Positions 31,276-49,827 of a stretch of 51,466 nt of DNA are shown piece after piece. Source of the DNA: a virus (Duplodnaviria; Heunggongvirae; Uroviricota; Caudoviricetes); the IMG/VR virus record IMGVR_UViG_2703718856_000005; one strand, 5' to 3'. The notes beneath the pieces are model-generated. The model was not told where the DNA came from and searched no databases. It saw only the letters and a list, made by a program, of their open reading frames with translations. The stretch's first letter is position 1. Each line of letters opens with the position of its first letter. Both the position numbers and the translations under genes were made by a program.

Positions 31276-31491
31276 TTAATCAGTAATGATGACATTTGCT
31301 GCTGCAGGACCTTTAGCACCACTCTCTATAGAGAAGGTAACCTTTTGACCTTCAAATAAGGTTCGATAATTATCATTCTGAATCGCAGAAAAATGCACAA
31401 ACACATCTTTACTACCATCAACAGGAGAAATAAAGCCGAAACCTTTATCAGCGTTAAACCATTTTACTAAACCAGTCATTTTATTTGACAT
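31276..31491 (-). CDS. cspB: cold shock protein CspB-like
   Basis: 71 aa; [23 protein letters not shown] with RNP motifs. Confidence 0.9.
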
Positions 31492-31791
31492 TCTACATTC
31501 CTTAACTTGAGCCTTTCGGCATAAATGGTTTGCATAACAGAAACGACTTCGTACTTAATTGGAGAGACTCAAAGAAGGAATAAGTGAATAACACCTGAAA
31601 TGAGAACTGCTTTAGTAAACTACTTCGTATATCGTCTGTTCTTCAAACCGACGCAATCATTAACGCATAGTTGAACATATGAAGCAATGTTTATTTTAGA
31701 CATCCAGCCATCTTCAACCCCATCAAAAAACTATAGCTTTCTTCAGGAACGTGTGTATAGTGCGCCAAGTTATCAGTATTAAGGAATTTTT

Positions 31792-34587: not shown

Positions 34588-34839
34588 TTATTCTCCTGAA
34601 AAAGCAGAAAAGCCAGCTTTTATTCCGATCTCTTTCAATGCCTGTAATGAAGTGACAAACTCACCTTCGCGCAAGATAAATCCGTCCGTGACCCGAGCAT
34701 CCACAAAATTAATTAACGCAGCCCCATTCTTTCGCAAACACATAATGCGGTAATGACTAACAAGATTTCCATTTTCAACGCACACAGCATAGAGGCCATC
34801 TTCACAAAAAATTTTACGCAGTTCTTCGATGTTCATCAT
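34588..34839 (-). CDS. hypothetical protein, 83 aa
   Basis: ORF between rem and the terminator of the relBE-hokD operon; no family recognised. Confidence 0.4.
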   Translation of the reverse strand: MMNIEELRKIFCEDGLYAVCVENGNLVSHYRIMCLRKNGAALINFVDARVTDGFILREGEFVTSLQALKEIGIKAGFSAFSGE

Positions 34840-35055: not shown

Positions 35056-35211
35056 TTACTCCTCAGGTTCGTAAGCTGTGAAGACAGCGACCTCCGTCTG
35101 GCCGGTTCGGATTCGTACCTCGCAGAGGTCTTTCCTCGTTACCAGTGCCGTCACTATGACGGTTAAACAGATGACGATCAGGGCGATTAACATCGCCTTT
35201 TGCTGCTTCAT
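35056..35211 (-). CDS. hokD: Hok-family type I membrane toxin (51 aa)
   Basis: Hand translation MKQQKAMLIALIVICLTVIVTALVTRKDLCEVRIRTGQTEVAVFTAYEPEE; codons verified; below track cutoff. Confidence 0.85.
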   Translation of the reverse strand: MKQQKAMLIALIVICLTVIVTALVTRKDLCEVRIRTGQTEVAVFTAYEPEE

Positions 35212-35282
35212 AGCCTGCTTCTCCTGTCAACGCAAAGCAGAAGTGTCACCTTCGGTGCGAAACAGAGATGTCATGCTTTGGT

Positions 35283-35570
35283 TCAGAGAATGCGTTTGAC
35301 CGCCTCGCTATATACTTCCGAGCGTTCTCTTTTCCCAACAGAAATCACGAAAACGACAACTTTCTCGTCTATAACCTGGTATACAAGGCGATAGCCTGAA
35401 GACCGGAGCTTAATCTTGTAACAATCAGGCATACCACGGAGCTTGTTTGCTTCAATCCGGGGTGACTCAAGTACTTCAACCAGCTTCTTTTTCAACTGTT
35501 CACGTACCGTCGAGCCCAGCTTTCGCCATTCCTTTAGTGCCCGCTCGTCAAAATCCAGAAAATACGCCAT
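35283..35570 (-). CDS. relE: RelE mRNA interferase toxin
   Basis: 95 aa, recalled as RelE. Confidence 0.9.
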   Translation of the reverse strand: MAYFLDFDERALKEWRKLGSTVREQLKKKLVEVLESPRIEANKLRGMPDCYKIKLRSSGYRLVYQVIDEKVVVFVISVGKRERSEVYSEAVKRIL

Positions 35571-35809
35571 CAGAGTTCATCCAGCGTCACACGTACTGGC
35601 TTAGGATTACGAAGCCGTTCTTTCACTATCTCCACAAGTTCAGCATCTTCATCACTCAGGAGTGTCTGTTTGAACGGCAAGCGTTCATTGTCAGCGATAT
35701 ACTCGAGCATGAGACGAAGCGCTTCAGAAGGAGTTACACCCATTTTTTCAAGCGCGGCGTAAGAACGCGCTTTAAGTTCATCGTCAATACGCAGGTTAAT
35801 GCTACCCAT
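35570..35809 (-). CDS. relB: RelB antitoxin
   Basis: 79 aa, recalled as RelB; overlaps the relE start. Confidence 0.9.
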   Translation of the reverse strand: MGSINLRIDDELKARSYAALEKMGVTPSEALRLMLEYIADNERLPFKQTLLSDEDAELVEIVKERLRNPKPVRVTLDEL

Positions 35810-37110: not shown

Positions 37111-38424
37111 TCAATCTTTTTTATCGGGATCAGGCTTCTTTTTAGGTAACTTCGGGGGCTTAACTTGCTGATGACTTTGCGTTCGGCGCGTAAGCCAGGG
37201 ATGGTCAGCTTTAGGTTTAACATAGTATTTTGAGCGTAAATCAATACGGGCATTATCCACTCGTTCATGGACACTCTTTTCATCATCCAGTGGTATAGGC
37301 TCCGGGCCATCAACATACTTTTCCCAGCCCAGCGCTTTCCCGTCATACAGAACGTTAATTTCACCGTCAAAGTTCTCGCATACAGTAACAACCGAATGCC
37401 TAAGTCGATATCCCCGGCCCTCACTGCGTACCTGAAACGCACTGCTTTTGTACTGGAAAGTGAGATTTTTAGACAGAACGCGCTTCGCCTGTAGGCTGAA
37501 GATATAACCCAGTTCCTCTTCAGAATGGTGCACATCAAGATGAGCATTATCAGTAGTACGAGGCGACGTAGCGAACCGGTTGTTATAGGCTTCAATAAAG
37601 GTCGGCAACCATGCATTTGCTGTTTCAATATCACTGATATTCTGAAGCCGCATTTCTTTGACCAGCCTGTCCTGTAGTGTCTGATTGGCGCGCTCTACCC
37701 GCCCTTTTGCCTGCGGGCTGTTGGCATGGATTGGCTCGATGCCCAGTGTCTTTATCGCACGAGTGAACTGGGTCAGCTCAACTTCCCGCTCTGGGTTATT
37801 TACCCTGAATATACTGTGTCTATCAGAGTAGAGAGCGAGCGGTACGCCATGATCATTAAGGTAACCCCGGAGGGTTTCCATGTAAGCCCGGGTTGTTTCA
37901 GCAGGCACAAAACGCAACGCCATCAACGCACTGGTGGCATCATCAATGAAAACGATCAGTGTACATCTGGGGCCTCGATTTTCAAACCAGTCATGAGGTG
38001 AGCCATCAATCTGGATCAGTTCACCGTAAGATGGTCGTCGCATGCGGCGTTGATATATACGGGCAATTTTACGACGGCGTTCACGCCATAACCCCTCTTC
38101 TATCATCCACTTTCTGAGGGTTTCAACGGATAAAGATAAACCGTGTATCTCGCGCAATTTTTCGCACGCAAACGTAGGTCCAAAATCAGCGTAACGGCCT
38201 TTGAGGAGTGAAATTACTGTTGCTCTGAATTCAGTAGAAAAGGAATTATTAGGACGCTTTCCACGTCGGTGGGAAACCAGACCAGAAGGCCCTTCATTTC
38301 TATACCGTTGCACCAGACGTTTAACCTGCCGAATAGAAATGCCAATGCGTGCCGCAGCTTGTTCCTGAATAATCTGAAGTCGGTGGAGTTCCTTATGACT
38401 CATCGTAACAGTCTCTTTGATCAT
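37111..38424 (-). CDS. DDE transposase with N-terminal helix-turn-helix and rve-type integrase core (IS481/ISNCY-like architecture)
   Basis: 437 aa; catalytic-core-like segments QIDGSPHDW, LYSDRHSIF and KGRVERANQTLQ; element ends not resolved. Confidence 0.8.
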   Translation of the reverse strand: MIKETVTMSHKELHRLQIIQEQAAARIGISIRQVKRLVQRYRNEGPSGLVSHRRGKRPNNSFSTEFRATVISLLKGRYADFGPTFACEKLREIHGLSLSVETLRKWMIEEGLWRERRRKIARIYQRRMRRPSYGELIQIDGSPHDWFENRGPRCTLIVFIDDATSALMALRFVPAETTRAYMETLRGYLNDHGVPLALYSDRHSIFRVNNPEREVELTQFTRAIKTLGIEPIHANSPQAKGRVERANQTLQDRLVKEMRLQNISDIETANAWLPTFIEAYNNRFATSPRTTDNAHLDVHHSEEELGYIFSLQAKRVLSKNLTFQYKSSAFQVRSEGRGYRLRHSVVTVCENFDGEINVLYDGKALGWEKYVDGPEPIPLDDEKSVHERVDNARIDLRSKYYVKPKADHPWLTRRTQSHQQVKPPKLPKKKPDPDKKD

Positions 38425-38758
38425 GAAAAATCCCCCAGAGAATTGTCTGGGGACATTTTAGAATGGTTCAAAGGGGACATTACAGCTTGGTGTTAACAAT
38501 AGCCTGCTTCTCCGTGCCTTTCGGCACGTAAGAGGCTAACCTACATGTGTCTAGCATGAAATTGGCCTCAGATTAATGTTAAGCGTCTTGCAGGACGCGT
38601 AATGTTAACTGGGGCTTTTCTCTATCTGCCGTTGGTGTCCATGCCCGAGGCAGATAGCCTCAAGCACCCGCAGTCATTCTACTTAACTAAGATTTCCCCG
38701 CAAACCGTTTTTGTCCAGCACAGTAAATATCCAACTAAACCAATGGAGTTCGCTGTAT

Positions 38759-38977
38759 TTACCGCCAGTATTCAATGCACATGACCGCCATGAACACCCC
38801 TAAAAAAAGGGCATTTATATATCCAAATATTAATATCAAAACATCAACTTTTTCCATATACCTTGCTGTGAAGATGATGGGCATACATGATGCGAACAAC
38901 CAGAACGCAACAAACAAAAACTGCAATGCGTTTTTCATTATTCCTCCTACAATCAATGTGCAATTACATTTAAACAC
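38759..38977 (-). CDS. small predicted membrane protein
   Basis: 72 aa ORF with two hydrophobic helices. Confidence 0.25.
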   Translation of the reverse strand: MFKCNCTLIVGGIMKNALQFLFVAFWLFASCMPIIFTARYMEKVDVLILIFGYINALFLGVFMAVMCIEYWR

Positions 38978-39476
38978 ACCTCAATTTGGCCGGACATATA
39001 AATATCTAAACCAGAAAAAATCACTTACATAGCGTTACAAACTCTTTAGTCTAAAGGTTCATCGTAAAATATTCCCCATACTTATCAGTCCGTTCCGCGC
39101 CAGGTAGCTCATTGCCTTATCTGGCAACCTGTAATCAGGTTTCCGCTTTTTCAGTTGGCTGGTCGTTTAACCGACATAGTTAATCCATTAATCTAGTTGC
39201 CGGATGTTGGTGGATTTTCGCGTTTTAGTTGTTCATAAAAGTGCACAGCTTTAACCAGTTCTTCTGATGTAACTGGGACTGGTGAGGCAGTGAATAAGGC
39301 CTGAATTTGATAGTTCGGCCTGTCGTTACAATCCTCTTTTTTCGGTACATATTTCCAGTCACCAGACCACTACTTCCCCTGAAAGTCCGTAACGCCTTTT
39401 TTCACGTAGCGATATCGCCATGCCACTGGTTTTGCTTGCCCCGCCGTTTCATGCCCTTCCTGATAATTAATCTCGC

Positions 39477-39668
39477 TCATTCATCGCCCCACTCATCACA
39501 ATATGCTTCGACCGGAGTTTTTCCCGCTTCATAGTCATCACGCTAGGATTCGACATCAGCAGCACTTCCACCGCGTAACTCACCATAGTCCATTAATAGT
39601 TCATCCCGCTCTTCAAAACTGATGTTATATTTAGCTGAACAAAAATCAGCCACTTTGTTCTTCCTCAT
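39477..39668 (-). pseudogene. small ORF interrupted by an in-frame TAG, followed by overlapping short ORFs; decayed nin-region genes
   Basis: Hand translation MRKNKVADFCSAKYNISFEERDELLMDYGELRGGSAADVES-stop-RDDYEAGKTPVEAYCDEWGDE; next ORF overlaps by ATGA. Confidence 0.3.
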
Positions 39669-39824
39669 CGTCTTTTATTTCGTGGTATGAGTAATTGCAG
39701 TAGTTAAAGAAAATTTCTTATGCTCCGTCATGAATTTCCGTAAGCGTAAACTGACCGCCGTATGTAGCCATCAGACGAGAATTGGTAACTTAGACGCCCA
39801 TCTGATATAGACGGACATCTAAGT

Positions 39825-40250
39825 ATGGAATTACAGGACTGGCGAAAAGAACCTCGTAAAAACTATTCGAATGAATTCAAACTTCGTATGGTGGAACTGG
39901 CATCACAACCTGGAGCTTGTGTTGCACAGATTGCACGTGAAAATGGCGTCAATGATAATGTTATTTTCAAATGGCTCAGGCTCTGGCAGAACGAAGGGCG
40001 TGTTTCGCGGCGTCTTCCGGTAACGACCTCTTCTGACACTGGCGTTGAATTATTACCTGTAGAAATAACGCCGGATGAGCAGAAAGAACCTGTGGCGGCC
40101 ATTGCGCCGTCTTTATCCACTTCCACTCAGACCAGAGTCAGTGCCAGTTCCTGCAAGGTGGAATTCCGTCACGGTAACATGACGCTGGAAAATCCATCGC
40201 CAGAGCTGCTCACAGTGTTGATCCGTGAACTGACCGGGAGGGGAAGATGA
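39825..40250 (+). CDS. tnpA: IS66-family accessory protein TnpA (orf1)
   Basis: 141 aa with helix-turn-helix, first ORF of the element. Confidence 0.85.
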   Translation: MELQDWRKEPRKNYSNEFKLRMVELASQPGACVAQIARENGVNDNVIFKWLRLWQNEGRVSRRLPVTTSSDTGVELLPVEITPDEQKEPVAAIAPSLSTSTQTRVSASSCKVEFRHGNMTLENPSPELLTVLIRELTGRGR

Positions 40251-40597
40251 TCTCACTCCCATCAGGTACCCGTATCTGGCTCGTTGCCGGCGTTACCGAT
40301 ATGCGTAAATCCTTCAACGGACTGGGAGAACAGGTACAACATGTGCTGAATGATAATCCCTTCTCCGGTCACCTGTTTATCTTCCGTGGCCGACGGGGTG
40401 ACACCGTCAAAATTCTTTGGGCTGATGCTGATGGTCTGTGCCTGTTCACCAAACGCCTGGAGGAAGGCCAGTTTATCTGGCCTGCGGTACGTGACGGCAA
40501 GGTATCCATTACCCGCTCGCAACTGGCAATGCTCCTCGATAAGCTGGACTGGCGTCAGCCAAAAACATCCAGCCGTAACTCACTGACAATGTTGTAA
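40247..40597 (+). CDS. tnpB: IS66-family TnpB (orf2)
   Basis: 116 aa; start overlaps the tnpA stop. Confidence 0.9.
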   Translation: MISLPSGTRIWLVAGVTDMRKSFNGLGEQVQHVLNDNPFSGHLFIFRGRRGDTVKILWADADGLCLFTKRLEEGQFIWPAVRDGKVSITRSQLAMLLDKLDWRQPKTSSRNSLTML

Positions 40598-40627
40598 AAA
40601 ACTCCTGACCGCATTATAAAAACGGTC

Positions 40628-42241
40628 ATGAGTCAGAAATACCTCATTCGCATCGCAGAGCTGGAAAGGTTGCTCTCTGAGCAGGCTGAAGCCCTCCGTC
40701 AGAAAGACCAGCAACTGAGTCTGGTTGAAGAGACGGAAGCCTTCCTGCGCTCTGCACTGACACGTGTCGAAGAAAAGATCGAAGAAGATGAACGGGAAAT
40801 AGAACATCTGCGGGCTCAGATAGAAAAACTGCGCCGGATGCTGTTCGGTACCCGTTCTGAAAAACTGCGTCGTGAAGTTGAACTGGCTGAGGCTCTGCTG
40901 AAACAACGTGAACAGGACAGCGATCGTTACAGTGGGCGGGAAGACGATCCTCAGGTTCCCCGCCAGTTGCGACAGTCGCGCCATCGTCGTCCGTTACCGG
41001 CACACCTTCCCCGTGAAATACACCGCCTGGAGCCAGAAGAAAGCTGTTGCCCGGAGTGTGGCGGTGAGCTGGATTATCTGGGGGAAGTCAGCGCTGAACA
41101 GCTGGAACTGGTGAGCAGTGCCCTGAAAGTGATCCGCACAGAACGGGTAAAAAAAGCCTGTACAAAATGTGACTGTATTGTTGAAGCACCGGCGCCGTCC
41201 CGCCCGGTAGAGCGTGGTATCGCGGGCCCCGGATTACTTGCCCGCGTGTTAACGGGAAAATACTGCGAACATCTGCCACTGTATCGTCAGAGTGAAATCT
41301 TTGCCCGCCAGGGTGTCGAACTGAGCCGGGCCTTACTCTCCAACTGGGTTGACGCGTGCTGCCAGTTAATGACACCGGTGAATGATGCCCTGTACCGTTA
41401 TGTAATGAACACCCGCAAGGTTCACACTGATGACACACCGGTAAAGGTACTGGCACCGGGTCAGAAAAAGGCGAAAACAGGGCGTATCTGGACGTATGTC
41501 CGGGATGATCGCAATGTGGGTTCGTCATCTCCTCCAGCGGTCTGGTTCGCGTACTCGCCGAACCGGCAGGGGAAACACCCGGAGCAACACCTCCGCCCCT
41601 TCCGGGGTATCCTGCAGGCGGATGCGTTCACAGGTTACGACAGGTTGTTCAGTGCAGAACGTGAAGGTGGTGCACTGACAGAAGTTGCGTGCTGGGCCCA
41701 TGCCCGGCGAAAAATCCACGATGTATACATCAGCAGCAAAAGTGCGACGGCAGAAGAAGCCCTGAAGCGAATCAGTGAACTGTACGCCATCGAGGATGAA
41801 ATACGGGGATTACCGGAGTCAGAGCGTCTTGCCGTCAGGCAGCAGCGAAGCAAAGTGTTACTGACGTCGCTGCATGAATGGATGGTGGAGAAGAATGGTA
41901 CGCTGTCGAAAAAATCCAGACTGGGCGAAGCGTTCAGCTATGTACTGAATCAGTGGGATGCCCTCTGTTATTACAGTGATGACGGTCTGGCGGAGGCGGA
42001 TAATAATGCTGCGGAAAGAGCGCTTCGTGCAGTCTGTCTCGGAAAGAAAAACTTTATGTTCTTTGGCAGCGATCACGGCGGCGAGCGTGGAGCACTGTTG
42101 TACGGGCTGATCGGCACCTGCCGTCTGAACGGTATCGATCCGGAAGCGTATCTGCGCCATATCCTGAGCGTACTGCCGGAATGGCCTTCCAACCGAGTTG
42201 ATGAACTCCTGCCATGGAACGTAGTACTCACCAATAAATAA
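40628..42241 (+). CDS. tnpC: IS66-family transposase TnpC (orf3)
   Basis: 537 aa; N-terminal coiled coil, CxxC zinc motifs, DDE-type core. Confidence 0.9.
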   Translation: MSQKYLIRIAELERLLSEQAEALRQKDQQLSLVEETEAFLRSALTRVEEKIEEDEREIEHLRAQIEKLRRMLFGTRSEKLRREVELAEALLKQREQDSDRYSGREDDPQVPRQLRQSRHRRPLPAHLPREIHRLEPEESCCPECGGELDYLGEVSAEQLELVSSALKVIRTERVKKACTKCDCIVEAPAPSRPVERGIAGPGLLARVLTGKYCEHLPLYRQSEIFARQGVELSRALLSNWVDACCQLMTPVNDALYRYVMNTRKVHTDDTPVKVLAPGQKKAKTGRIWTYVRDDRNVGSSSPPAVWFAYSPNRQGKHPEQHLRPFRGILQADAFTGYDRLFSAEREGGALTEVACWAHARRKIHDVYISSKSATAEEALKRISELYAIEDEIRGLPESERLAVRQQRSKVLLTSLHEWMVEKNGTLSKKSRLGEAFSYVLNQWDALCYYSDDGLAEADNNAAERALRAVCLGKKNFMFFGSDHGGERGALLYGLIGTCRLNGIDPEAYLRHILSVLPEWPSNRVDELLPWNVVLTNK

Positions 42242-42630
42242 GCGTCAATACGGTGCTCCGTTGACGCTTACGAATTTCCTCAGGTGTTGCGTCATCGTCC
42301 ACTTCGAATACATCCTCAAAATCTCCACCAGCTATTCCCGTTTCAATAATAATTTTGAACTTTCGCATTTCACTACCGCCCTTTCGGGCGGCCTCCTGAT
42401 GTTCTGAGGGTGCAGAAATCCATCCGGTTAAGGATTAAATTTTATTTACAGAACTGAATTTAATTATTCAGATATACGTATCTGTAGCCTTACGAATCTA
42501 CTCACTGGATGCCTCTTTCATAAAAATAATCCAGTGGGTTTTATCGTTTTTTCCCTGTTCGTTGACAGATAACAGGTTTTCTGTCTGTCAGTGCCAGAAT
42601 CTGGCTTACCGGTATTTGCGTTTCATTCCA

Positions 42631-42987
42631 TTAAAAAATCAGAACGCCGTGCGGCCTCAACACCCGAAAGGCTTCTTTAAATCTCTGTCGCGAATCATCA
42701 CGCCAGGCATCTTTATTCAGCCGTCCATATTTCTTTCCCATCCAGGCGTTATCACCAACACTCTCAAGATGCGGAGGGTCTAATACAACCATCGAAAAAG
42801 ATGCGTCTGCAAATGATAATGCACGAAAATCTGCGATAATGTCAGGGCTGATAATCAAGCGTCTCCCATTGCGTAATGTGTATCCTTCTTTTCTGATATC
42901 GCTGAATATCGCCCGTTCGTCAGACTTATCGAACCAGAACATGCGGCTGCCACAGCACATATCAAGAATGGTTGCCGGTGCACTCAC
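42631..42987 (-). CDS. DNA methyltransferase-like protein, short (118 aa), possibly truncated
   Basis: SAM-binding-like ILDMCCGSRMF and a DPPH motif resembling the DPPY catalytic motif of amino-methyltransferases. Confidence 0.45.
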   Translation of the reverse strand: MSAPATILDMCCGSRMFWFDKSDERAIFSDIRKEGYTLRNGRRLIISPDIIADFRALSFADASFSMVVLDPPHLESVGDNAWMGKKYGRLNKDAWRDDSRQRFKEAFRVLRPHGVLIF

Positions 42988-43406
42988 TGCGCCACGTCCT
43001 GAAAATTACCCTGATAGAAAGCCAGTATGCGCTGCATAACTTCGCTCTTCCGGCACTCGCGACAGATTATGTTTAGGCGACTGTCGTAGCGACGTATTTC
43101 TCCGTCAGGTGATGACCAGATAAGGTCCGGATCAACCACAGCAGGTTTCTTCACCTTTGCCCTCGAGAGTTTTTTGCGGGCGTTTTGCCAGTCCTTACGC
43201 GCCTGTTCAGAGGGGAATAACCCGTAGCCGGAGTTGTATACATCGCCACTGGCTACCAGCTCTCTGGCAAGAACGCTCATCAGATATCTAGTCGCACCTG
43301 TTTTAGCTTCCAGTTGCCGTAACGTCTCACGGCCGCTCTGGCGCACGAGTTCCACCACCTGCCATTTAATTTTTTCCCGCTCTTCTTGTGTAAAAACTTT
43401 TGCCAC
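42984..43406 (-). CDS. hypothetical protein, 140 aa, basic, possibly DNA-binding
   Basis: ORF translationally coupled to neighbours in the dicC-side operon. Confidence 0.4.
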   Translation of the reverse strand: MAKVFTQEEREKIKWQVVELVRQSGRETLRQLEAKTGATRYLMSVLARELVASGDVYNSGYGLFPSEQARKDWQNARKKLSRAKVKKPAVVDPDLIWSSPDGEIRRYDSRLNIICRECRKSEVMQRILAFYQGNFQDVAQ

Positions 43407-43446
43407 AAGTCCCCCTTAAAATTACCTCATGACCTGAAATCAACAC

Positions 43447-44466
43447 TTATCCTCTGAAACCAGGCGGAATTTCTGTATCCGGTTCAGAAATATGATTAAC
43501 ACAACGCTGTACAGGTGAACGTCCCAGGCGGATGACCAGTTCGTCCCATTTTTCGCGGAGCTTTGACGGGCTCATGATGTTTTTTACCCAGAATGGATCT
43601 CGCTGAACCCGACCAAACATTTCGCAAATTTGTCTGTGGCTTCTGCCATCCAGCATCCGCATTGTGCGCACGTCATTGGCCCAGGCAGTCCAGTTAGGCT
43701 CTTTTGGTCGCATGATCTCGCCATCATCACTGGCTGCCTGTTCGTAGAGACCCACGATCCGCCCCCAGATCCACTGCGCACACGCCAAATCCTCCCTGCT
43801 ACCCCACTGGCGTTTTTTCGCACTAAACACAACCGCGTCGGAGTTCCGGGTTAAAAAATCCTGTTCAGTCGTCTGCGGGTCCGGTTGCGAAGCTTCCGGA
43901 CGAAAAGTGTTTTTATTCTCTGTAGTAATCTCTGTTGTATTCTCTGTAAGATCATCAGGCCATTTTGACCCGATGACATTGGGTCGTTTTGAACCAATGG
44001 AGCGTTTCATTTTGACCTCTTCCATCGTGTCATTTTGACCTGATGGAGCGGCGCATTTTGAACCGATGGATTCGCTCAATTTGCCACCATCTAAAAGCTC
44101 GCTCCCATAGTTGATCGTGTAGAAATTGGTCATATCGCGCTTTGATTTATTGAGCTTTTCACAACGCAAAAGCCCCAGCGTTTTCAGACTTGCAAACGCG
44201 CGCTTTAACGTTGACTCTGACCAGAATGGGAACTGTTCCAGCCATTGTTCCGTTGTGTTATAAATCCAGCGAACACCATCACATTCCATGCCGGAGTTGG
44301 TATCTCTCAACCAGTAGTGCAGTTGTTGCAAAACAATGGCTTCGTTTAAGCCAATTTTCATTGCCAGCTGCGTGTTTATAACCAGTGGGCGTTCAGCAAA
44401 AAGAAGGCTCATAATTCCATCCAGCTTTTTGTTGGTATTGCTGTCGATACGCAAGTTTGAAAGCAA
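43447..44466 (-). CDS. phage replication initiator / replisome-organiser-type protein, iterons within the gene (alternative start at 44412)
   Basis: N-terminal winged-helix-like segment MSLLFAERPLVINTQLAMKIGLNEAIVLQQLHYWL; repeated IGSK peptide motif encoded by the DNA iterons. Confidence 0.75.
   Translation of the reverse strand: MLSNLRIDSNTNKKLDGIMSLLFAERPLVINTQLAMKIGLNEAIVLQQLHYWLRDTNSGMECDGVRWIYNTTEQWLEQFPFWSESTLKRAFASLKTLGLLRCEKLNKSKRDMTNFYTINYGSELLDGGKLSESIGSKCAAPSGQNDTMEEVKMKRSIGSKRPNVIGSKWPDDLTENTTEITTENKNTFRPEASQPDPQTTEQDFLTRNSDAVVFSAKKRQWGSREDLACAQWIWGRIVGLYEQAASDDGEIMRPKEPNWTAWANDVRTMRMLDGRSHRQICEMFGRVQRDPFWVKNIMSPSKLREKWDELVIRLGRSPVQRCVNHISEPDTEIPPGFRG
43961..44092. repeat. origin-like iteron array: about six copies of CATTTTGACC-type repeats at roughly 23 bp spacing, with three TCTCTGT repeats just beside it (43918..43950)
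   Basis: Repeats read directly at about 43961, 43987, 44009, 44031, 44054 and 44078. Confidence 0.7.
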
Positions 44467-44914
44467 TTGCTTTTTCTATAAGTTCGTCAGTTTCACGATC
44501 CACTACGGCAGGATCAGCAAAAAGCAGTCCGGACTCCACCACATCGCCATATTCTTTGTTTAACCCGGCGATCATGCACGTGATGCTTTTTCCGTCAGTA
44601 ATTTCACGATACAACCTGAAATCATTAATCCGGATAGCCTCCATAATTGCAGGCACTAGCGCCGTGAACTTTTCACGCTTATCCCTGGTGTCGATAGCCT
44701 TCCAGCGTTCAAATATCTTCACTCGATTAACGCCAAGCGCTCGCTGATCAATCGCGCCACCTTCATATGTGACACGCTGAACATCGATGTTCGGGCGCTC
44801 TTTCAAAGCCCAGAATGCTTCAGTGATTAATATCGTCGCCTGCTCCTGTGTCATTCCTGGTCGACATATCCAGGCATCCAGAGCCTCACGAGCCTGTTCA
44901 GGAGTGATTTTCAT
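44393..44914 (-). CDS. hypothetical protein, 173 aa, first gene after dicC
   Basis: ORF overlapping the dicC stop and the initiator start; family not recognised. Confidence 0.45.
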   Translation of the reverse strand: MKITPEQAREALDAWICRPGMTQEQATILITEAFWALKERPNIDVQRVTYEGGAIDQRALGVNRVKIFERWKAIDTRDKREKFTALVPAIMEAIRINDFRLYREITDGKSITCMIAGLNKEYGDVVESGLLFADPAVVDRETDELIEKAIAFKLAYRQQYQQKAGWNYEPSFC

Positions 44915-45128
44915 TGTTCAACCGCCCCGCCCGCTTCGTCTTACGATATTCATCATAAACTTTGGGATCATACTGAAGCTCCCCGCCAGATGCCTCCTGT
45001 AGACGCATCGCGCGACCTTCGGGAACTAAATCCCCTTTCCAGCTATAAAGCGAAGCCAAACGAATACCTGCTGCTTGTGCAAGTTTTGTTTTTGAACCGA
45101 AATACAAAAGAGCGTCAGTTTTAAGCAT
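44898..45128 (-). CDS. dicC: DicC, Cro-like regulator
   Basis: 76 aa, recalled as DicC; divergent from dicA. Confidence 0.85.
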   Translation of the reverse strand: MLKTDALLYFGSKTKLAQAAGIRLASLYSWKGDLVPEGRAMRLQEASGGELQYDPKVYDEYRKTKRAGRLNNENHS

Positions 45129-45211
45129 TTAAAACACCTTTATTGTTAGTCATAACTAACAAGATAGATGTTAACAAAAACATAGTCAATACGATTTAGC
45201 ATTAGCTAACT
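45129..45211. promoter_or_regulatory. dicA/dicC divergent promoter-operator region with three palindromes
   Basis: TTGTTAGT-CATA-ACTAACAA (45143..45162), ATGTT-AACAAA-AACAT (45169..45184), TTAGC-ATTA-GCTAA (45196..45209). Confidence 0.6.
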
Positions 45212-45619
45212 ATGGAAACAAAAAATTTAACTATCGGCGAACGCATCAGGTATCGTCGGAAAAACCTCAAACACACCCAAAGGTCTCTTGCTAAAGCCCT
45301 GAAAATCTCCCATGTGTCTGTATCACAATGGGAACGGGGTGATAGTGAACCTACAGGGAAGAACCTTTTTGCCCTCAGCAAAGTATTGCAATGCTCACCA
45401 ACATGGATTCTATTTGGCGATGAAGACAAGCAACCAACACCACCTGTTGAGAAGCCAGTTGCCTTATCCCCCAAAGAACTAGAGCTCCTTGAGCTGTTTA
45501 ATGCACTGCCAGAATCAGAACAGGATACCCAGCTCGCCGAAATGCGAGCTCGAGTAAAAAACTTCAATAAACTCTTTGAAGAATTACTAAAAGCCCGTCA
45601 GCGGACAAATAAAAGATAA
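45212..45619 (+). CDS. dicA: DicA, helix-turn-helix repressor
   Basis: 135 aa, recalled as DicA; XRE-type helix-turn-helix near the N-terminus. Confidence 0.9.
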   Translation: METKNLTIGERIRYRRKNLKHTQRSLAKALKISHVSVSQWERGDSEPTGKNLFALSKVLQCSPTWILFGDEDKQPTPPVEKPVALSPKELELLELFNALPESEQDTQLAEMRARVKNFNKLFEELLKARQRTNKR

Positions 45620-45785
45620 CATCATCAATGAGTTATCTTTTACCACATCAATTATGTTAGCTATAGCATACAAAATCACTTGACCGATATGTTAGTCATG
45701 GCTAATCTTGTTTGCATCAACACACCGCACGGTGTTCTCAGCAAACAGTTCCGCTACCCCAGCGTTAAGGGGAAATGAGGTCAGC

Positions 45786-45941
45786 ATGGATACTATCGAT
45801 CTTGGCAACAACGAATCTCTGGTGTACGGCGTGTTTCCAAACCAGGACGGCACGTTCACCGCAATGACGTATACCAAAAGCAAAACGTTTAAAACCGAAA
45901 ATGGTGCCCGTCGCTGGCTGGAAAGAAACTCAGGTGAGTGA
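45786..45941 (+). CDS. ydfA: YdfA-like small protein (51 aa)
   Basis: MDTIDLGNNESLVYGVFPNQDGTFTAMTYTK from the internal ATG at 45786. Confidence 0.75.
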   Translation: MDTIDLGNNESLVYGVFPNQDGTFTAMTYTKSKTFKTENGARRWLERNSGE

Positions 45942-45942
45942 T

Positions 45943-46071
45943 ATGGATTTCGACACAATCATGGAAAAGGCTTACGAAGAATACTTCGAAGGCCTTGCCG
46001 AAGGCGAAGAAGCTCTCAGCTTCAGTGAGTTTAAACAGGCGCTTTCCAGTTCGGCAAAATCTAACGGCTGA
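45943..46071 (+). CDS. ydfB: YdfB-like small protein (42 aa)
   Basis: Hand translation MDFDTIMEKAYEEYFEGLAEGEEALSFSEFKQALSSSAKSNG; below track cutoff. Confidence 0.6.
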   Translation: MDFDTIMEKAYEEYFEGLAEGEEALSFSEFKQALSSSAKSNG

Positions 46072-46100
46072 TAAGCGAAACAGCACCGCGAGGAATCAGT

Positions 46101-46319
46101 ATGCAGAAACGAGAACCCGTCATCATCGCGCCAGACTATACCGATGATGAACTTTATGAGTGGATGCGCCAGAAAATTAATGCAGCGCAGGATCTGAAAT
46201 GGGCTAATGAAGCCAGGGCTAAGCAGGCTGAAAATCTGTCCGCTCTGGAGCAGGATATCACCAATCTGGAAAAAGCAGCGGCATTAAGCATTGCCAGAAT
46301 GATTACATACCCGCGTTAG
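46101..46319 (+). CDS. ydfC: YdfC-like protein
   Basis: 72 aa, position and sequence as recalled for Qin. Confidence 0.8.
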   Translation: MQKREPVIIAPDYTDDELYEWMRQKINAAQDLKWANEARAKQAENLSALEQDITNLEKAAALSIARMITYPR

Positions 46320-46659
46320 TAGCTAATCAACAAAGCTAAGGTTAGTAATTAAGGAGTTCTCCACGGGTGAGGTGGAGTGCGTGCGCCGGACACGGGTGCG
46401 CATCCGGAACTGACAGTTTACTGAAAGGATATTTCCCTGAAAAGTCAGACCATAACGCGAAAGCGCACGGCGAGGTAGCTGGTTCATAGATAGCCTGTCG
46501 TTAAATTTTCGTCGACCGTGCGCTTCCGGTTGTGGCAACCCGCGAAATGGCGCGGCGGTAAGTATGGCGGGGTTATTCCTTCCCCGTTGAGGACACCGGG
46601 TTGTCAGGTTGACCATACGCTTAAGTGACAACCCCGCTGCAACGCCCTCTGTTATCAAT

Positions 46660-46717
46660 TTTCTGGTGACGTTTGGCGGTATCAGTTTTACTCCGTGACT
46701 GCTCTGCCGCCCTTTTT
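46660..46717 (+). ncRNA. dicF: DicF small RNA (ftsZ-targeting, Hfq-dependent), with its intrinsic terminator
   Basis: TTTCTGGTGACGTTTGGCGGTATCAGTTTTACTCCGTGACTGCTCTGCCGCCCTTTTT matches the recalled DicF sequence; sits between ydfC and dicB. Confidence 0.7.
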
Positions 46718-46886
46718 AAAGTGAATTTTGTGATGTGGTGAATGCGGCTGAGCGCACGCGGAACAGTTAAAACCCAAAACAGTGTTATGGGTGGATTCTC
46801 TGTATCCGGCGTTAATTGTTAACTGGTTAACGTCACCTGGAGGCACCAGGCACTGCATCACAAAATTCATTGTTGAGGACGCGATA

Positions 46887-47075
46887 ATGAAAACGTTATT
46901 ACCAAACGTTAATACGTCTGAAGGTTGTTTTGAAATTGGTGTCACTATCAGTAACCCAGTATTTACTGAAGATGCCATTAACAAGAGAAAACAAGAACGG
47001 GAGCTATTAAATAAAATATGCATTGTTTCAATGCTGGCTCGTTTACGTCTGATGCCAAAAGGATGTGCACAATGA
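46887..47075 (+). CDS. dicB: DicB cell division inhibitor (62 aa)
   Basis: MKTLLPNVNTSEGCFEIGVTISNPVF from the internal ATG at 46887. Confidence 0.85.
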   Translation: MKTLLPNVNTSEGCFEIGVTISNPVFTEDAINKRKQERELLNKICIVSMLARLRLMPKGCAQ

Positions 47076-47263
47076 ATTCAGCATTTGTGCTTGTTCTGAC
47101 AGTTTTTCTTGTTTCCGGAGAGCCAGTTGATATTGCAGTCAGTGTTCACAGGACAATGCAGGAGTGTATGACTGCAGCAACCGAACAGAAAATTCCCGGT
47201 AACTGTTACCCGGTCGATAAAGTTATTCACCAGGATAATATCGAAATCCCGGCAGGTCTTTAA
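47072..47263 (+). CDS. ydfD: YdfD-like small membrane protein (63 aa)
   Basis: MNSAFVLVLTVFLVSGEPVDIAVSVHRT; ATGA overlap with the dicB stop. Confidence 0.8.
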   Translation: MNSAFVLVLTVFLVSGEPVDIAVSVHRTMQECMTAATEQKIPGNCYPVDKVIHQDNIEIPAGL

Positions 47264-47319
47264 AACAGTTCCGTAATAAATATCCGGTTTCATTCTTATA
47301 TGCCAGCAATGGCAGGGAT

Positions 47320-48045
47320 TTGTTCATCCTTAAATCTGTCATGAGGTTAAAACAAATGAGTAAAGTCTTTATTTGCGCCGCTATTCCTGACGAACTGGCA
47401 ACAAGGGAAGAAGGCGCTGTGGCTGTAGCCACAGCCATTGAAGCTGGCGACGAACGCCGTGCTCGAGCAAAATTTCACTGGCAATTCCTGGAACATTATC
47501 CGGCTGCTCAGGACTGCGCTTATAAATTTATTGTCTGCGAGGATAAACCTGGCATACCCCGCCCTGCCCTCGATTCATGGGATGCTGAATATATGCAGGA
47601 AAACCGCTGGGATGAGGAGTCTGCTTCTTTTGTCCCGGTTGAGACTGAATCCGATCCGATGAACGTCACTTTTGACAAGCTGGCCCCTGAAGTACAGAAC
47701 GCTGTCATGGTTAAGTTCGACACATGTGAAAACATCACCGTTGATATGGTTATTAGCGCACAGGAATTGTTGCAGGAAGACATGGCAACATTCGACGGAC
47801 ATATCGTTGAAGCGTTGATGAAAATGCCAGAAGTTAACGCCATGTATCCGGAGCTTAAGTTGCACGCCATTGGGTGGGTTAAGCATAAATGTATTCCTGG
47901 TGCTAAATGGCCCGAAATTCAGGCAGAGATGCGCATCTGGAAAAAACGTCGCGAAGGTGAACGCAAGGAAACCGGAAAATACACGTCTGTTGTTGATCTC
48001 GCCCGCGCCAGAGCCAATCAACAGTACACTGAAAATTCAACATGA
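47320..48045 (+). CDS. ydfE: YdfE-like protein, apparently full length (about 229 to 241 aa)
   Basis: ORF following ydfD; the K-12 counterpart is recalled as a fragment. Confidence 0.5.
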   Translation: MFILKSVMRLKQMSKVFICAAIPDELATREEGAVAVATAIEAGDERRARAKFHWQFLEHYPAAQDCAYKFIVCEDKPGIPRPALDSWDAEYMQENRWDEESASFVPVETESDPMNVTFDKLAPEVQNAVMVKFDTCENITVDMVISAQELLQEDMATFDGHIVEALMKMPEVNAMYPELKLHAIGWVKHKCIPGAKWPEIQAEMRIWKKRREGERKETGKYTSVVDLARARANQQYTENST

Positions 48046-48141
48046 AAAATCAGCCCGGTCATTGCTGCCATTCATCGCGAATACAAGCAGACATGGAAAA
48101 CACTGGATGACGAACTGGCCTACGCTCTCTGGCCTAGTGAT

Positions 48142-49827
48142 GTGGATGCCGGAAACATTGACGGCAGCATCCATCGCTGGGCAAAAAAAGAAGTTATCGA
48201 CAACGACCGCGAAGACTGGAAGCGTATCTCGGCATCAATGCGCAAACAGCCTGATGCCCTTCGCTACGACCGCCAAACTATTTTTGGCCTTGTCCGTGAG
48301 CGTCCGATCGACATTCACAAAGATCCCGTAGCACTGAACAAATATATCTGCGAATACCTGACGACAAAGGGCGTGTTTGAGAATGAAGAAACAGACCTGG
48401 GCACTGTTGATGTTCTCCAGTCATCAGAAACACAAACTGATGCAGTGGAAACTGAGGTATCTGATATCCCAAAAAATGAAACCGCGCCGGAAGCTGAACC
48501 ATCTGTAGAGCGTGAGGGGCCGTTCTATTTCCTCTTCGCAGATAAGGACGGAGAAAAATACGGTCGCGCAAACAAACTCTCTGGTCTGGATAAGGCACTG
48601 GCTGCTGGCGCCACTGAAATCACAAAAGAAGAATATTTTGCCCGAAAAAATGGCACATACACGGGCTTACCGCAAAATGTAGATACCGCTGAAGATTCAG
48701 AACAACCAGAGCCGATAAAAGTTACCGCTGACGAAGTAAACAAAATTATGCAGGCAGCCAATATCAGCCAGCCTGACGCCGATAAGTTGCTTGCTGCATC
48801 ACGTGGTGAATTTGTTGAAGGGATTAGTGACCCGAATGATCCGAAATGGGTTAAGGGGCTCCAGACCCGCGATTCTGTGAACCAGAACCAGCATGAATCG
48901 GAACGGAACTACCAAAAAGCGGAACAAAACAGTCCAAATGCGTTACAAAACGAGCCAGAAACGAAACAGCCTGAACCAGTAGCGCAACAGGAAGTGGAAA
49001 AAGTCTGCACCGCCTGCGGTCAGACCGGCGGCGGCAACTGCCCTGATTGTGGCGCGGTGATGGGCGACGCAACATACCAAGAAACATTCGATGAAGAGTA
49101 TCAGGTTGAAGTTCAGGAAGATGATCCGGAGGAAATGGAAGGCGCTGAACATCCACACAAGGAGAACACTGGCGGCAATCAGCATCACAATAGCGATAAT
49201 GAAACTGGCGAGACGGCAGATCACCCAATTAAGGTGAACGGTCATCACGAAATCACATCCACCAGCAGGACGTGTGACCATCTAATGATCGACCTTGAAA
49301 CCATGGGAAAAAATCCTGATGCCCCGATCATCTCAATAGGTGCAATATTTTTCGATCCGCAAACCGGAGATATGGGACCGGAATTTAGTAAGACTATCGA
49401 TCTGGAAACTGCTGGCGGAGTCATTGATCGGGACACCATTAAATGGTGGCTTAAGCAATCACGCGAAGCGCAATCTGCCATTATGACCGATGAAATCCCG
49501 TTAGATGATGCACTGTTACAATTGCGAGAATTTATCGACGAAAACTCCGGTGAATTTTTTGTTCAGGTTTGGGGAAATGGAGCCAACTTCGACAACACGA
49601 TTTTGCGCCGTTCATACGAACGGCAGGGGATCCCCTGCCCGTGGCGTTACTACAACGATCGCGATGTACGCACAATCGTTGAGCTGGGGAAAGCCATAGA
49701 CTTCGATGCCAGAACGGCTATTCCATTCGAAGGTGAGCGCCATAATGCACTTGATGACGCCCGTTACCAGGCAAAATACGTTTCAGTTATCTGGCAAAAA
49801 CTGATCCCGAGTCAGGCTGATTCTTAA
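48142..49827 (+). CDS. multidomain protein: acidic N-terminal region, central CxxC...CxxC zinc ribbon, C-terminal DnaQ-like DEDDh 3'-5' exonuclease domain (GTG start in track)
   Basis: Exonuclease motifs MIDLETMG, WGNGANFD and HNALDDARYQ; zinc ribbon CTACGQTGGGNCPDCG. Confidence 0.7.
   Translation: MDAGNIDGSIHRWAKKEVIDNDREDWKRISASMRKQPDALRYDRQTIFGLVRERPIDIHKDPVALNKYICEYLTTKGVFENEETDLGTVDVLQSSETQTDAVETEVSDIPKNETAPEAEPSVEREGPFYFLFADKDGEKYGRANKLSGLDKALAAGATEITKEEYFARKNGTYTGLPQNVDTAEDSEQPEPIKVTADEVNKIMQAANISQPDADKLLAASRGEFVEGISDPNDPKWVKGLQTRDSVNQNQHESERNYQKAEQNSPNALQNEPETKQPEPVAQQEVEKVCTACGQTGGGNCPDCGAVMGDATYQETFDEEYQVEVQEDDPEEMEGAEHPHKENTGGNQHHNSDNETGETADHPIKVNGHHEITSTSRTCDHLMIDLETMGKNPDAPIISIGAIFFDPQTGDMGPEFSKTIDLETAGGVIDRDTIKWWLKQSREAQSAIMTDEIPLDDALLQLREFIDENSGEFFVQVWGNGANFDNTILRRSYERQGIPCPWRYYNDRDVRTIVELGKAIDFDARTAIPFEGERHNALDDARYQAKYVSVIWQKLIPSQADS

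What the first reader, a model, noticed from the sequence alone, without database searches (positions are those of the whole stretch)
45786..47263. Repressor-controlled operon encoding the DicF sRNA, DicB and small membrane proteins
Downstream of dicA lie ydfA, ydfB, ydfC, the DicF sRNA with its terminator, dicB and ydfD (ATGA overlap with dicB). DicF and DicB are known division inhibitors, so de-repression of this operon would block host division. ydfB is below the ORF track cutoff.
Basis: partly seen in the sequence, partly recalled or inferred. Interest (0 to 1): 0.45.

Follow-up and report, generated by a model that had tools for sequence, protein, structure and literature searches.

The report
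Known dicBF cell-division-inhibitor prophage operon
This is the well-studied dicBF operon of a Qin-type defective prophage of E. coli, kept silent by the DicA repressor and encoding an RNA (DicF) and a protein (DicB) that stop cell division; it is essentially identical to the laboratory K-12 copy, so the finding is correct but ordinary.

Summary
Rfam finds DicF at 46661-46712 (76.7 bits, threshold 48). ydfA, ydfB, ydfC, dicB and ydfD sit exactly where stated, including the ATGA overlap. The stretch 44635-48122 is 99.9% identical to E. coli K-12 MG1655 Qin. All five proteins and DicF match K-12 exactly.

Two corrections:
- Only YdfD has a hydrophobic segment. YdfA, YdfB and YdfC are hydrophilic, not membrane proteins.
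- The unit is larger than 45786-47263. The promoter and operators lie at 45655-45708, and transcription can continue past ydfD.

Sequence features here reconcile all published transcript lengths if transcription starts near 45715.

One addition: the DicF-dicB spacer holds a roughly 110-nt structured RNA domain, a diverged relative of the prophage sRNA family STnc100. It is enclosed by a 21-bp helix that matches the published RNase III cut and covaries strongly across phages. The same leader precedes kilR in Rac, after the DicF-like sRNA KilS. This is a modest, unproven lead.

Verdict: already known, low interest.

The parts
44898..45128 (-). dicC, the Cro-like regulator, divergent from dicA
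   Evidence: NCBIfam NF007282 DicC, 159.5 bits (cut-off 130); Pfam P22_Cro, 1.7e-11; RefSeq annotation
45144..45211 (.). Operators in the dicC-dicA intergenic region: the perfect palindrome TGTTAGTCATAACTAACA (45144-45161) and a weaker copy (45194-45211)
   Evidence: Pattern search; inverted repeats. The literature reports DicA/DicC binding at this divergent promoter (PMC10448788, PMC11430063)
45212..45619 (+). dicA, the CI/C2-like repressor of dicBp (135 aa; HTH only, no peptidase S24 domain)
   Evidence: NCBIfam NF007257, 234.3 bits (cut-off 101); Pfam HTH_3, 1.3e-16, with no S24 hit. Protein identical to K-12 DicA
45655..45708 (+). dicBp promoter with two operator copies. Operators: TGTTAGCTATAGCATACA (45655-45672) and TGTTAGTCATGGCTAATC (45690-45707). 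-35 TTGACC at 45680-45685, 17-nt spacer, -10 TAATCT at 45703-45708. Inferred TSS near 45715
   Evidence: Three motif matches at up to 2 mismatches against 0.41 expected, all flanking dicA. Hexamer positions. The TSS is inferred because it reconciles the published +813/814, 190-nt, 1,146-nt and 1,608-nt species (PMC10448788). The consensus promoter scan missed this promoter because the -10 matches only 3 of 6 positions
45786..45941 (+). ydfA (51 aa, DUF1391, hydrophilic, function unknown)
   Evidence: PHROG 751, 'unknown function'
45943..46071 (+). ydfB (42 aa, acidic, hydrophilic, function unknown)
   Evidence: PHROG 2061; RefSeq annotation
46101..46319 (+). ydfC (72 aa, hydrophilic, function unknown)
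   Evidence: PHROG 1744
46458..46528 (+). Upstream double-stranded stem (arms 46458-46470 and 46516-46528). Probable RNase III site that creates the 5' end of the 190-nt pre-DicF
   Evidence: Inverted repeat of 13 nt, 92% complementary; present in the MFE and centroid structures. The published cut at +813/814 maps to 46527/46528 with a TSS of 45715. The difference from K-12 at 46468 turns a U.G pair into C-G, so the stem is preserved
46660..46717 (+). DicF sRNA (53 nt, 46660-46712) with its terminator U-tract (46713-46717)
   Evidence: Rfam RF00039, 76.7 bits; 100% identical to K-12 b1574; fold
46720..46871 (+). Structured leader between DicF and dicB. A 21-bp enclosing helix (46720-46740 with 46851-46871) surrounds a roughly 110-nt domain related to the sRNA family STnc100. 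Core hairpin CCUGG-AGGCA-CCAGG at 46836-46850. Probable RNase III site that gives the 72-nt DicF isoform
   Evidence: Inverted repeat of 19 nt, 89% complementary. MFE z-score -4.9 for the spacer. Rfam STnc100 34.2 bits, below the gathering score of 47. Covariation: 13 of 21 helix pairs change on both sides, 90.6% of cells paired against 33-41% in slid controls, 0 of 500 shuffles reach the score. RNAalifold agrees. The 72-nt DicF 3' end falls at 46731, inside the 5' arm (PMC5069750)
46887..47075 (+). dicB (62 aa), a MinC-dependent division inhibitor; SD GAGGA at 46875-46879
   Evidence: Pfam PF05358, 1.9e-40; NCBIfam NF049927; identical to the K-12 protein
47072..47263 (+). ydfD (63 aa), a lysis protein with an N-terminal hydrophobic segment; its start overlaps the dicB stop (ATGA)
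   Evidence: Pfam PF07358, 3.9e-26; hydropathy; function from PMC8835842
47301..47324 (+). Weak terminator-like hairpin plus T-rich tail after ydfD. Likely 3' end of the published 1,608-nt transcript
   Evidence: Terminator scan; TSS 45715 + 1,608 gives 47322
47356..49827 (+). Full-length form of ydfE (3'-5' exonuclease, Rv2179c-like domain), the next gene of the early-left operon. Here it is interrupted by an in-frame TGA at 48043-48045
   Evidence: Translation and comparison with the intact 823-aa homologue; Pfam PF16473, 1.5e-67; RefSeq annotation in L086
34588..34839 (-). rem, the antirepressor reported to relieve DicA repression of dicBp. It acts in trans and lies 11 kb away in the same prophage
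   Evidence: Maps to K-12 rem by 100% identity; function from PMC10448788

Best explanation
The region is the dicBF operon, the early-left (PL-equivalent) operon of a Qin-type lambdoid prophage of E. coli.

Repression. DicA (45212-45619) binds 18-bp palindromic operators on both sides of its own gene. One copy (45690-45707) overlaps the spacer and the -10 of dicBp (-35 at 45680, -10 at 45703), so bound DicA shuts out RNA polymerase.

De-repression. Published triggers are the antirepressor Rem, spontaneous switching, urea and heat. Transcription then starts near 45715 and runs through ydfA-ydfB-ydfC into a long untranslated, highly structured spacer.

Processing. RNase III cuts a stem at about 46458-46528, giving a 190-nt pre-DicF. 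RNase E trims this to the 53-nt DicF, which ends at its own intrinsic terminator (46713-46717). Read-through transcripts are cut by RNase III in the 21-bp helix at 46720-46871. This gives the 72-nt DicF isoform and separates a dicB-ydfD mRNA.

Effects. DicF with Hfq represses ftsZ, xylR, pykA and manX translation. DicB binds MinC and carries it to the septum through ZipA, which dismantles the Z ring, and it also blocks ManYZ-dependent phage DNA entry. YdfD binds IspG and lyses dividing cells unless DicB has already stopped division.

What is shown here and what is inferred:
- Shown here: the identity, coordinates and integrity of every part; operator placement; the two stems and covariation of the second.
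- Taken from published experiments on the identical K-12 sequence: repression, processing and targets.
- Inferred: the exact TSS, and the assignment of the two stems to the mapped RNase III cuts.
For: - Rfam DicF at 76.7 bits.
- Pfam and NCBIfam hits for DicA, DicC, DicB, YdfA and YdfD.
- 99.9% identity to MG1655 Qin, with all products identical.
- RefSeq annotation of 100%-identical loci.
- Operator motif found three times against 0.41 expected, only around dicA, with one copy inside dicBp.
- Two long stems placed where the published cuts fall.
- Helix covariation.
- Prophage context with Q, lysis genes, rem, exonuclease, xis and int.
- Literature: PMC10448788 (22-fold de-repression in a dicA deletion; RNase III and RNase E processing; Rem), PMC5069750 (DicF-ftsZ compensatory mutations; 53-nt and 72-nt forms), PMC6832061 (DicB-MinC-ZipA, ManYZ), PMC8835842 (YdfD-IspG), PMC11430063 (DicC ChIP peaks on either side of dicA; palindromic TTNG...CNAA motif).
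Against: Nothing contradicts the identification. Weak points:
- My in-silico DicF-ftsZ pairing test did not beat shuffled controls (75 of 1,000 for the whole RNA; 377 of 2,000 for the loop). Target regulation therefore rests on published genetics, not on anything computed here.
- The generic sigma-70 scan did not call dicBp, and the terminator scan did not call the DicF terminator because its loop is too long.
- The TSS is inferred, not read from data.
- Database annotations cited in PMC11430063 list extra promoters upstream of dicF and dicB. PMC10448788 found no evidence for them.
- Expression in this particular strain was not tested.
Confidence: 0.97

Rival explanations
1. DicF and dicB are separate transcription units with their own promoters in the spacer, not parts of one DicA-controlled operon.
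For: Database annotation quoted in PMC11430063 lists a promoter upstream of dicF and another upstream of dicB. One older study, cited in PMC10448788, proposed a promoter upstream of dicB. KilS, the DicF-like RNA of Rac, was suggested to have its own promoter (PMC8175672).
Against: Primer extension and Northern blots in PMC10448788 show that the 190-nt species starts at an RNase III cut, that it disappears in an rnc mutant, and that no internal promoter is evident. No + strand sigma-70-like site was found between 44800 and 47500, although that scan also missed dicBp. The spacer's conserved features are RNA helices, not promoter hexamers.
Confidence: 0.08
2. The 570-bp gap between ydfC and dicB is protein-coding on the opposite strand (111-aa ORF at 46323-46658, TTG start), and the RNA features are incidental.
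For: An open frame of 111 codons fills the ydfC-DicF gap almost exactly.
Against: There is no Pfam or PHROG match and no RefSeq annotation in any genome inspected. The start codon is TTG. The region is mosaic across DicB loci: only 26 of 80 keep the 46320-46522 part. The + strand RNA fold is far more stable than shuffles (z = -4.9).
Confidence: 0.02
3. The operon here is an inert relic. The prophage is decaying, so the genes, though recognisable, no longer do anything in this strain.
For: The prophage carries IS66 and ISNCY insertions, pseudogenes and a nonsense codon in the downstream exonuclease. The operon is silent under standard conditions (PMC10448788).
Against: Every dicBF product, DicA, the promoter and the operators are identical to the K-12 copy, which is demonstrably active when de-repressed (PMC10448788, PMC5069750). 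The core from pre-DicF through ydfD is 95-100% conserved in 66 of 80 independent viral contigs, which points to maintenance rather than decay.
Confidence: 0.05

Closest known systems
dicBF operon of cryptic prophage Qin, E. coli K-12 MG1655 (b1570-b1576)
   Same: Gene order, all protein sequences, DicF, the promoter and the operators are identical. There are 4 substitutions in 3,488 bp.
   Different: This copy sits in a more complete prophage. K-12 has lost 7.3 kb upstream of dicC (37296-44634 here), and IS2E interrupts its ydfE and intQ. Here ydfE is full length apart from one nonsense codon, and xis and int are present. Two non-coding substitutions (46468, 46775) lie in the spacer.
Early-left operon of prophage Rac (racR | ydaG-ydaF ... 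KilS - kilR - ydaE - racC - recE)
   Same: The architecture is the same: repressor, small DUF1391 protein, an sRNA ending at CCGCCCUUUUU, the stem-enclosed STnc100-like leader, a small FtsZ-directed division inhibitor, then an exonuclease. The RNA part is 80% identical over 340 nt.
   Different: The inhibitor protein is unrelated (KilR rather than DicB). The sRNA KilS scores only 39 bits on the DicF model and has a different seed region.
Lambda / P22 immunity region with the PL operon (cI-cro, OL/OR, kil)
   Same: A repressor flanked by operators on both sides, a divergent cro-like gene, a leftward early operon carrying a host-division inhibitor at the kil position, then exo, xis and int (PMC10448788, PMC3961180).
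   Different: DicA is short and lacks the RecA-cleavable domain, so it is not SOS-inducible (PMC10448788). I did not identify an N-type antiterminator or nut site. The inhibitor works through MinC rather than acting directly on FtsZ.
STnc100 (Rfam RF02076) / PasD prophage sRNAs
   Same: The leader at 46720-46871 shares the closing helix, the GGUGAAU...UCACC junction and the invariant CCNGG-AGGCA-CCN'GG hairpin.
   Different: It scores below the family threshold (34.2 against 47). It has no terminator of its own. It is embedded in an mRNA between an sRNA and an ORF. Its closing helix is extended to about 21 bp, the length of an RNase III substrate.

Membership tests
DicF RNA (Rfam RF00039) | Covariance-model score at or above the gathering threshold over the full model | tested here: met
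   76.7 bits against 48, model positions 1-52 of 52
DicF RNA (Rfam RF00039) | About 53 nt, ending in an intrinsic terminator hairpin plus a U-tract, inside a prophage early operon | tested here: met
   Hairpin fold of -15.9 kcal/mol and TTTTT at 46713-46717; lies between ydfC and dicB
DicF RNA (Rfam RF00039) | Antisense pairing with the ftsZ translation-initiation region | tested here: inconclusive
   The loop pairs across ftsZ -13..+1 (-12.9 kcal/mol), but 377 of 2,000 shuffles do as well. The identical K-12 RNA was validated by compensatory mutations (PMC5069750)
DicF RNA (Rfam RF00039) | [quoted passage not shown] | not testable with these tools
   Published for the identical sequence (PMC5069750, PMC10448788). 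Stems consistent with the mapped cuts are present
DicB (Pfam PF05358 / NCBIfam NF049927) | Full-length profile match above the curated cut-off | tested here: met
   136.8 bits (cut-off 27) and 132.8 bits (cut-off 100), residues 1-62 of 62
DicB (Pfam PF05358 / NCBIfam NF049927) | MinC- and ZipA-dependent block of Z-ring assembly | not testable with these tools
   Published for the identical protein (PMC6832061)
DicA-type prophage repressor (NCBIfam NF007257) | Profile match above cut-off, HTH domain, and cognate palindromic operators overlapping the regulated promoters | tested here: met
   234.3 bits against 101; HTH_3 at 1.3e-16. Operators lie on both sides of dicA, one inside dicBp
Lambdoid early-left (PL-type) operon | Repressor with a divergent cro-like gene; a leftward operon carrying a host-killing gene and leading to exo, xis and int | tested here: met
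   dicC matches P22_Cro; exonuclease, excisionase and integrase lie downstream
Lambdoid early-left (PL-type) operon | N-type antiterminator and nut site at the start of the operon | not tested
   No N-like family was hit among ydfA, ydfB and ydfC. No nut search was done
   YdfA, YdfB, YdfC: best 19-residue windows 0.17, -0.12 and 0.51, with GRAVY -0.88, -0.55 and -0.67. Only YdfD reaches 2.0, at residues 5-23
STnc100 (Rfam RF02076), for the DicF-dicB leader | Score at or above the gathering threshold | tested here: not met
   34.2 bits against 47. The Rac copy scores 28 and the P7 copy 43
STnc100 (Rfam RF02076), for the DicF-dicB leader | Conserved core hairpin and closing helix | tested here: met
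   The variable pair of the core hairpin is only G-C (83 copies) or U-A (41 copies) in 124 copies. The closing helix is recovered by RNAalifold and covaries
STnc100 (Rfam RF02076), for the DicF-dicB leader | Stand-alone sRNA with its own intrinsic terminator | tested here: not met
   Canonical copies end in GCCCCTCTCCGGAGGGGCTTTTT-type terminators. The Qin/Rac subgroup runs straight into the SD of dicB or kilR

The most novel reading that the evidence does not exclude
The DicF-dicB spacer is more than a passive RNase III site. It is a conserved, portable RNA cassette: a diverged STnc100/PasD-type domain of about 110 nt, locked inside a roughly 21-bp covarying helix. In Qin-like, Rac-like and other enterobacterial prophages this cassette links an upstream sRNA (DicF or KilS) to a small toxic ORF (dicB, kilR or other short peptides). 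RNase III cleavage of the helix would release the domain as a discrete RNA of about 128 nt and set the 5' end, and hence the stability or translation, of the toxin mRNA. This would tie the DicF isoform choice (53 or 72 nt) to DicB output. The domain might also act as an sRNA in its own right. It would also make KilS a DicF paralogue.
Probability: 0.3. Interest if true: 0.4.

Novelty: already known. Interest (0 to 1): 0.12.

Why it matters
As stated, the finding matters little. It re-identifies one of the oldest known sRNA and division-inhibitor loci in E. coli, in a copy identical to the K-12 reference, so it adds a strain record and no biology.

Its practical value is as a positive control for the scan: a reader working from raw sequence placed six features to the base.

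The side observation has modest value. It offers a structural reason for the two mapped RNase III cuts. It links the DicF-dicB and KilS-kilR loci as one cassette. It also extends the STnc100/PasD family to mRNA-embedded members. Together these suggest a testable route by which prophages dose toxic division inhibitors after transcription.

Tried and rejected
1. DicF-ftsZ duplex energies against shuffles, for the whole RNA, the 5' tail and the apical loop. None was significant, so I dropped this as evidence.
2. Generic promoter and terminator scan. It missed both dicBp (weak -10) and the DicF terminator (long loop), so it cannot argue for or against internal promoters.
3. Using 80 DicB-encoding viral contigs for covariation. 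The core is 95-100% identical, too little variation, so I switched to motif scans.
4. The 111-aa minus-strand ORF in the spacer. It has no family hit and I rejected it as coding.
5. Attempts to read Faubladier & Bouche 1994 (PMC205167), Conter 1996 (PMC178304) and Masuda 2016 (PMC5975272). None is held. I therefore cannot exclude that the Rac dicF-like sequence and the conserved flanks were already described in 1994.
6. Motif hits in MAGs of unrelated phyla. These were either identical to the E. coli type, which suggests mis-binning, or bare 19-mer chance hits without the core hairpin. About four chance hits are expected in 596 Gb.
7. Protein homology searches, structure prediction and fold search were not used. 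All five proteins are identical to named K-12 proteins, so these would add nothing.
Full report
**Observation**

The hit is there. RF00039 matches 46661-46712 on the + strand at 76.7 bits, against a gathering score of 48, covering the whole model. The K-12 dicF annotation maps to 46660-46712 and is base-for-base identical. Five T residues follow at 46713-46717, and the RNA folds into the expected terminator hairpin.

- ydfA 45786-45941
- ydfB 45943-46071 (42 aa)
- ydfC 46101-46319
- dicB 46887-47075
- ydfD 47072-47263, with the ATGA overlap

Profile searches name DicA, DicC, DicB, DUF1391 (YdfA) and DUF1482 (YdfD), all well above the curated cut-offs.

**Identity of the locus**

Megablast finds 100%-identical copies in many E. 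coli chromosomes, annotated dicA, ydfA, ydfB, ydfC, dicB and ydfD. In all, 4,762 of 5,426 complete genomes have some match. Against MG1655, window 44635-48122 aligns without gaps to 1,647,357-1,650,844 inside cryptic prophage Qin, with four substitutions. One is synonymous in dicA, two are non-coding (46468 and 46775), and one is the nonsense change described below. Every product of the operon therefore equals the experimentally studied K-12 product.

**Correction 1: membrane proteins**

Kyte-Doolittle analysis shows one hydrophobic segment only, at the N-terminus of YdfD (2.0 over residues 5-23). YdfA, YdfB and YdfC are hydrophilic, with GRAVY between -0.55 and -0.88. PHROGs lists all three as unknown function. 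YdfD is published as a lysis protein that binds IspG and whose lysis DicB offsets (PMC8835842). DicB is a soluble MinC partner (PMC6832061).

**Correction 2: extent of the unit and how it is controlled**

The 18-bp palindrome TGTTAGYNNNNRCTAACA occurs three times in the 51-kb window at up to 2 mismatches, against 0.41 expected. All three copies flank dicA. A perfect copy lies between dicC and dicA (45144-45161). Two more lie between dicA and ydfA (45655-45672 and 45690-45707).

The last copy overlaps the 17-nt spacer and the -10 of a promoter with -35 TTGACC (45680-45685) and -10 TAATCT (45703-45708). This placement is what repression by occlusion requires. It agrees with three published results:
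- three lambda-like operators in each of the two intergenic regions flanking dicA (PMC10448788);
- DicC ChIP peaks 'on either side of dicA' with a TTNG...CNAA palindrome (PMC11430063);
- 22-fold induction of dicBp in a dicA deletion (PMC10448788).

DicA has only an HTH domain and no S24 peptidase hit, in line with its reported insensitivity to SOS. The antirepressor gene rem is present at 34588-34839 on the - strand.

**Transcript anatomy**

The 571-nt spacer between ydfC and dicB folds far better than shuffled sequence (z = -4.9). It contains two long double-stranded stems. A transcription start near 45715, seven bases after the -10, places every published length on a sequence feature:

| Published species | Maps to | Feature there |
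|---|---|---|
| RNase III cut at +813/814 | 46527/46528 | 3' arm of the first stem (46458-46470 with 46516-46528) |
| 190-nt pre-DicF | ends at 46717 | terminator U-tract |
| 72-nt RNase III isoform of DicF (PMC5069750) | ends at 46731 | 5' arm of the second helix |
| 1,146-nt species (PMC10448788) | ends at 46860 | the base paired with 46731 |
| 1,608-nt species | ends at 47322 | weak terminator-like hairpin after ydfD |

The TSS and the stem-to-cut assignments are my inferences. The lengths are from the papers. The substitution at 46468 relative to K-12 converts a U.G pair of the first stem into C-G, which preserves the structure.

**Function**

None of this is new. By compensatory mutation, DicF pairs with ftsZ (through its 3' region) and with xylR (through its 5' end). 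It also represses pykA through its 3' end, and it is toxic beyond its effect on ftsZ (PMC5069750). DicB recruits MinC to the septum through ZipA, and it blocks ManYZ-dependent phage entry (PMC6832061).

My own pairing calculation did not separate DicF from shuffled controls. I therefore do not count it as evidence.

**Context**

Window 25100-51466 is 99.98% identical to E. coli CFSAN061762. There the region is a Qin-type prophage running from terminase through lysis genes, Q and rem to dicC/dicA, the dicBF operon, an exonuclease, xis and int, next to rspB. The operon is thus the PL-equivalent early-left operon. dicB sits at the kil position and the exonuclease at the exo position.

**What I followed beyond the finding**

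A permissive Rfam search gave a sub-threshold STnc100 match (34.2 bits, threshold 47) over 46710-46919. BLAST showed that the spacer is mosaic. The segment 46707-46871 recurs without Qin-type DicF in other phages. It lies directly upstream of the Rac-type kil in phage vB_EcoS-666R9 and of terB/tciA in P7 and P1.

Two motif scans of IMG/VR collected 124 and 116 copies. The results were:
- The variable pair of the core hairpin CCNGG-AGGCA-CCN'GG is only G-C (83 copies) or U-A (41 copies).
- Canonical STnc100 copies end in their own terminators. The Qin/Rac subgroup does not, and is instead enclosed by a 20-24-bp helix.
- On a 59-sequence alignment, RNAalifold recovers that helix independently.
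- In the explicit count, 13 of its 21 pairs change on both sides and 90.6% of cells are paired, against 33-41% when the partner is slid. The covariation score is 0.264 against 0.045-0.085, and 0 of 500 shuffles reach it.
- Unrelated arm sequences stay complementary, for example CAACAGACCTTGCAATGCAG and CTTAATCAGGATTTGCAATG, and also in Citrobacter, Klebsiella and Raoultella.
- One class (AGAGAGAATCC...) has only a short stem.

A caveat applies. The tested structure was derived from the window sequence, which inflates the 'cells paired' measure. The both-sides-changed counts and the slid controls are less affected.

Downstream of the main stem class, the ORF is DicB or Rac-type Kil. In K-12 Rac the annotated sRNA KilS (b4833) occupies the DicF position, scores 39 bits on the DicF model and ends at the same terminator. 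The same leader and then kilR follow it. The paper that named KilS does not mention DicF. The STnc100/PasD preprint does not mention DicF, dicB or Qin. I could not read the 1994 dicF survey, which may already cover part of this.

**Verdict**

The system is already known in detail, so interest is low.

The leader cassette is a reasonable small lead. RNase III processing at that helix is very likely. Any role beyond that, such as release of a stable RNA or control of DicB translation, is untested.

Noticed in passing
window 46720-46871 (core hairpin 46836-46850): The DicF-dicB spacer holds a diverged STnc100-family RNA domain (34 bits, below Rfam's threshold of 47). A 21-bp helix encloses it and covaries strongly across phages and enterobacterial genera. 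It coincides with the published RNase III cut that gives the 72-nt DicF.
   Followed up: yes
L286 1715-2060 (- strand; MG1655 Rac, 1,418,214-1,418,559), compared with window 46560-46900: The annotated K-12 sRNA KilS, upstream of kilR, is a DicF-like RNA (39 bits on the DicF model, same terminator). The same stem-enclosed leader follows it. Qin DicF-leader-dicB and Rac KilS-leader-kilR are therefore one cassette with the inhibitor ORF swapped. The KilS paper does not mention DicF.
   Followed up: partly
window 48043-48045 (within 47356-49827): The exonuclease gene after ydfD (the full-length form of K-12 pseudogene ydfE; Rv2179c-like 3'-5' exonuclease domain) has an in-frame TGA where K-12 and strain CFSAN061762 encode Gly230. 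This is either a fresh pseudogene or a sequencing error.
   Followed up: partly
window 37296-44634: This 7.3-kb segment is absent from K-12 Qin. It carries IS66-family and ISNCY transposase genes, a methyltransferase, DUF977, a replication-region ORF and a YdaT-family gene next to dicC. K-12's ydfW and ydfX flank the deletion that removed this segment from its Qin.
   Followed up: partly
window 38498-38669 (- strand): Rfam sok antitoxin RNA (104 bits) lies in the non-K-12 segment, between a truncated ISNCY transposase and a frameshifted ORF. It is probably a hok/sok remnant, separate from hokD/relBE at about 35056-35809.
   Followed up: no
window 28365-28750, 31260-31652 and 3343-3541 (all - strand): Two cspA-type thermoregulator leaders (cspI and cspB of the prophage) and an IS009 RNA hit all pass Rfam gathering scores.
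   Followed up: no
window 46540-46636; L003 2501-2595 (P1 AF234173 68420-68514): The part of the 190-nt pre-DicF that lies upstream of mature DicF is about 78% identical to a stretch just after the ban-operon operator of phage P1. That stretch partly overlaps the feature annotated 'dicF-like region' in the P1 record (68472-68573). It also occurs alone in Stx2c phages, another sign that the spacer is assembled from separable RNA modules.
   Followed up: partly
L154 1387-1577 and L196 4349-4539 (- strand); about 14 of the 80 DicB loci L006-L085: Some dicB loci have lost DicF and the 5' half of the leader, including the 5' arm of the helix, through recombination inside the element. Only the core hairpin and the 3' arm remain before dicB. 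These are natural 'helix-broken' variants that could be compared for DicB expression.
   Followed up: no
L296, L298, L317 (Klebsiella); L287 (Citrobacter); L304 (Raoultella): In other genera the same leader precedes very small ORFs (36-93 aa), several of them strongly hydrophobic (for example MSKNGIRYMVISLVIG..., MNTLFALVISVCALTG...). This suggests a general association with small toxic or membrane peptides.
   Followed up: no
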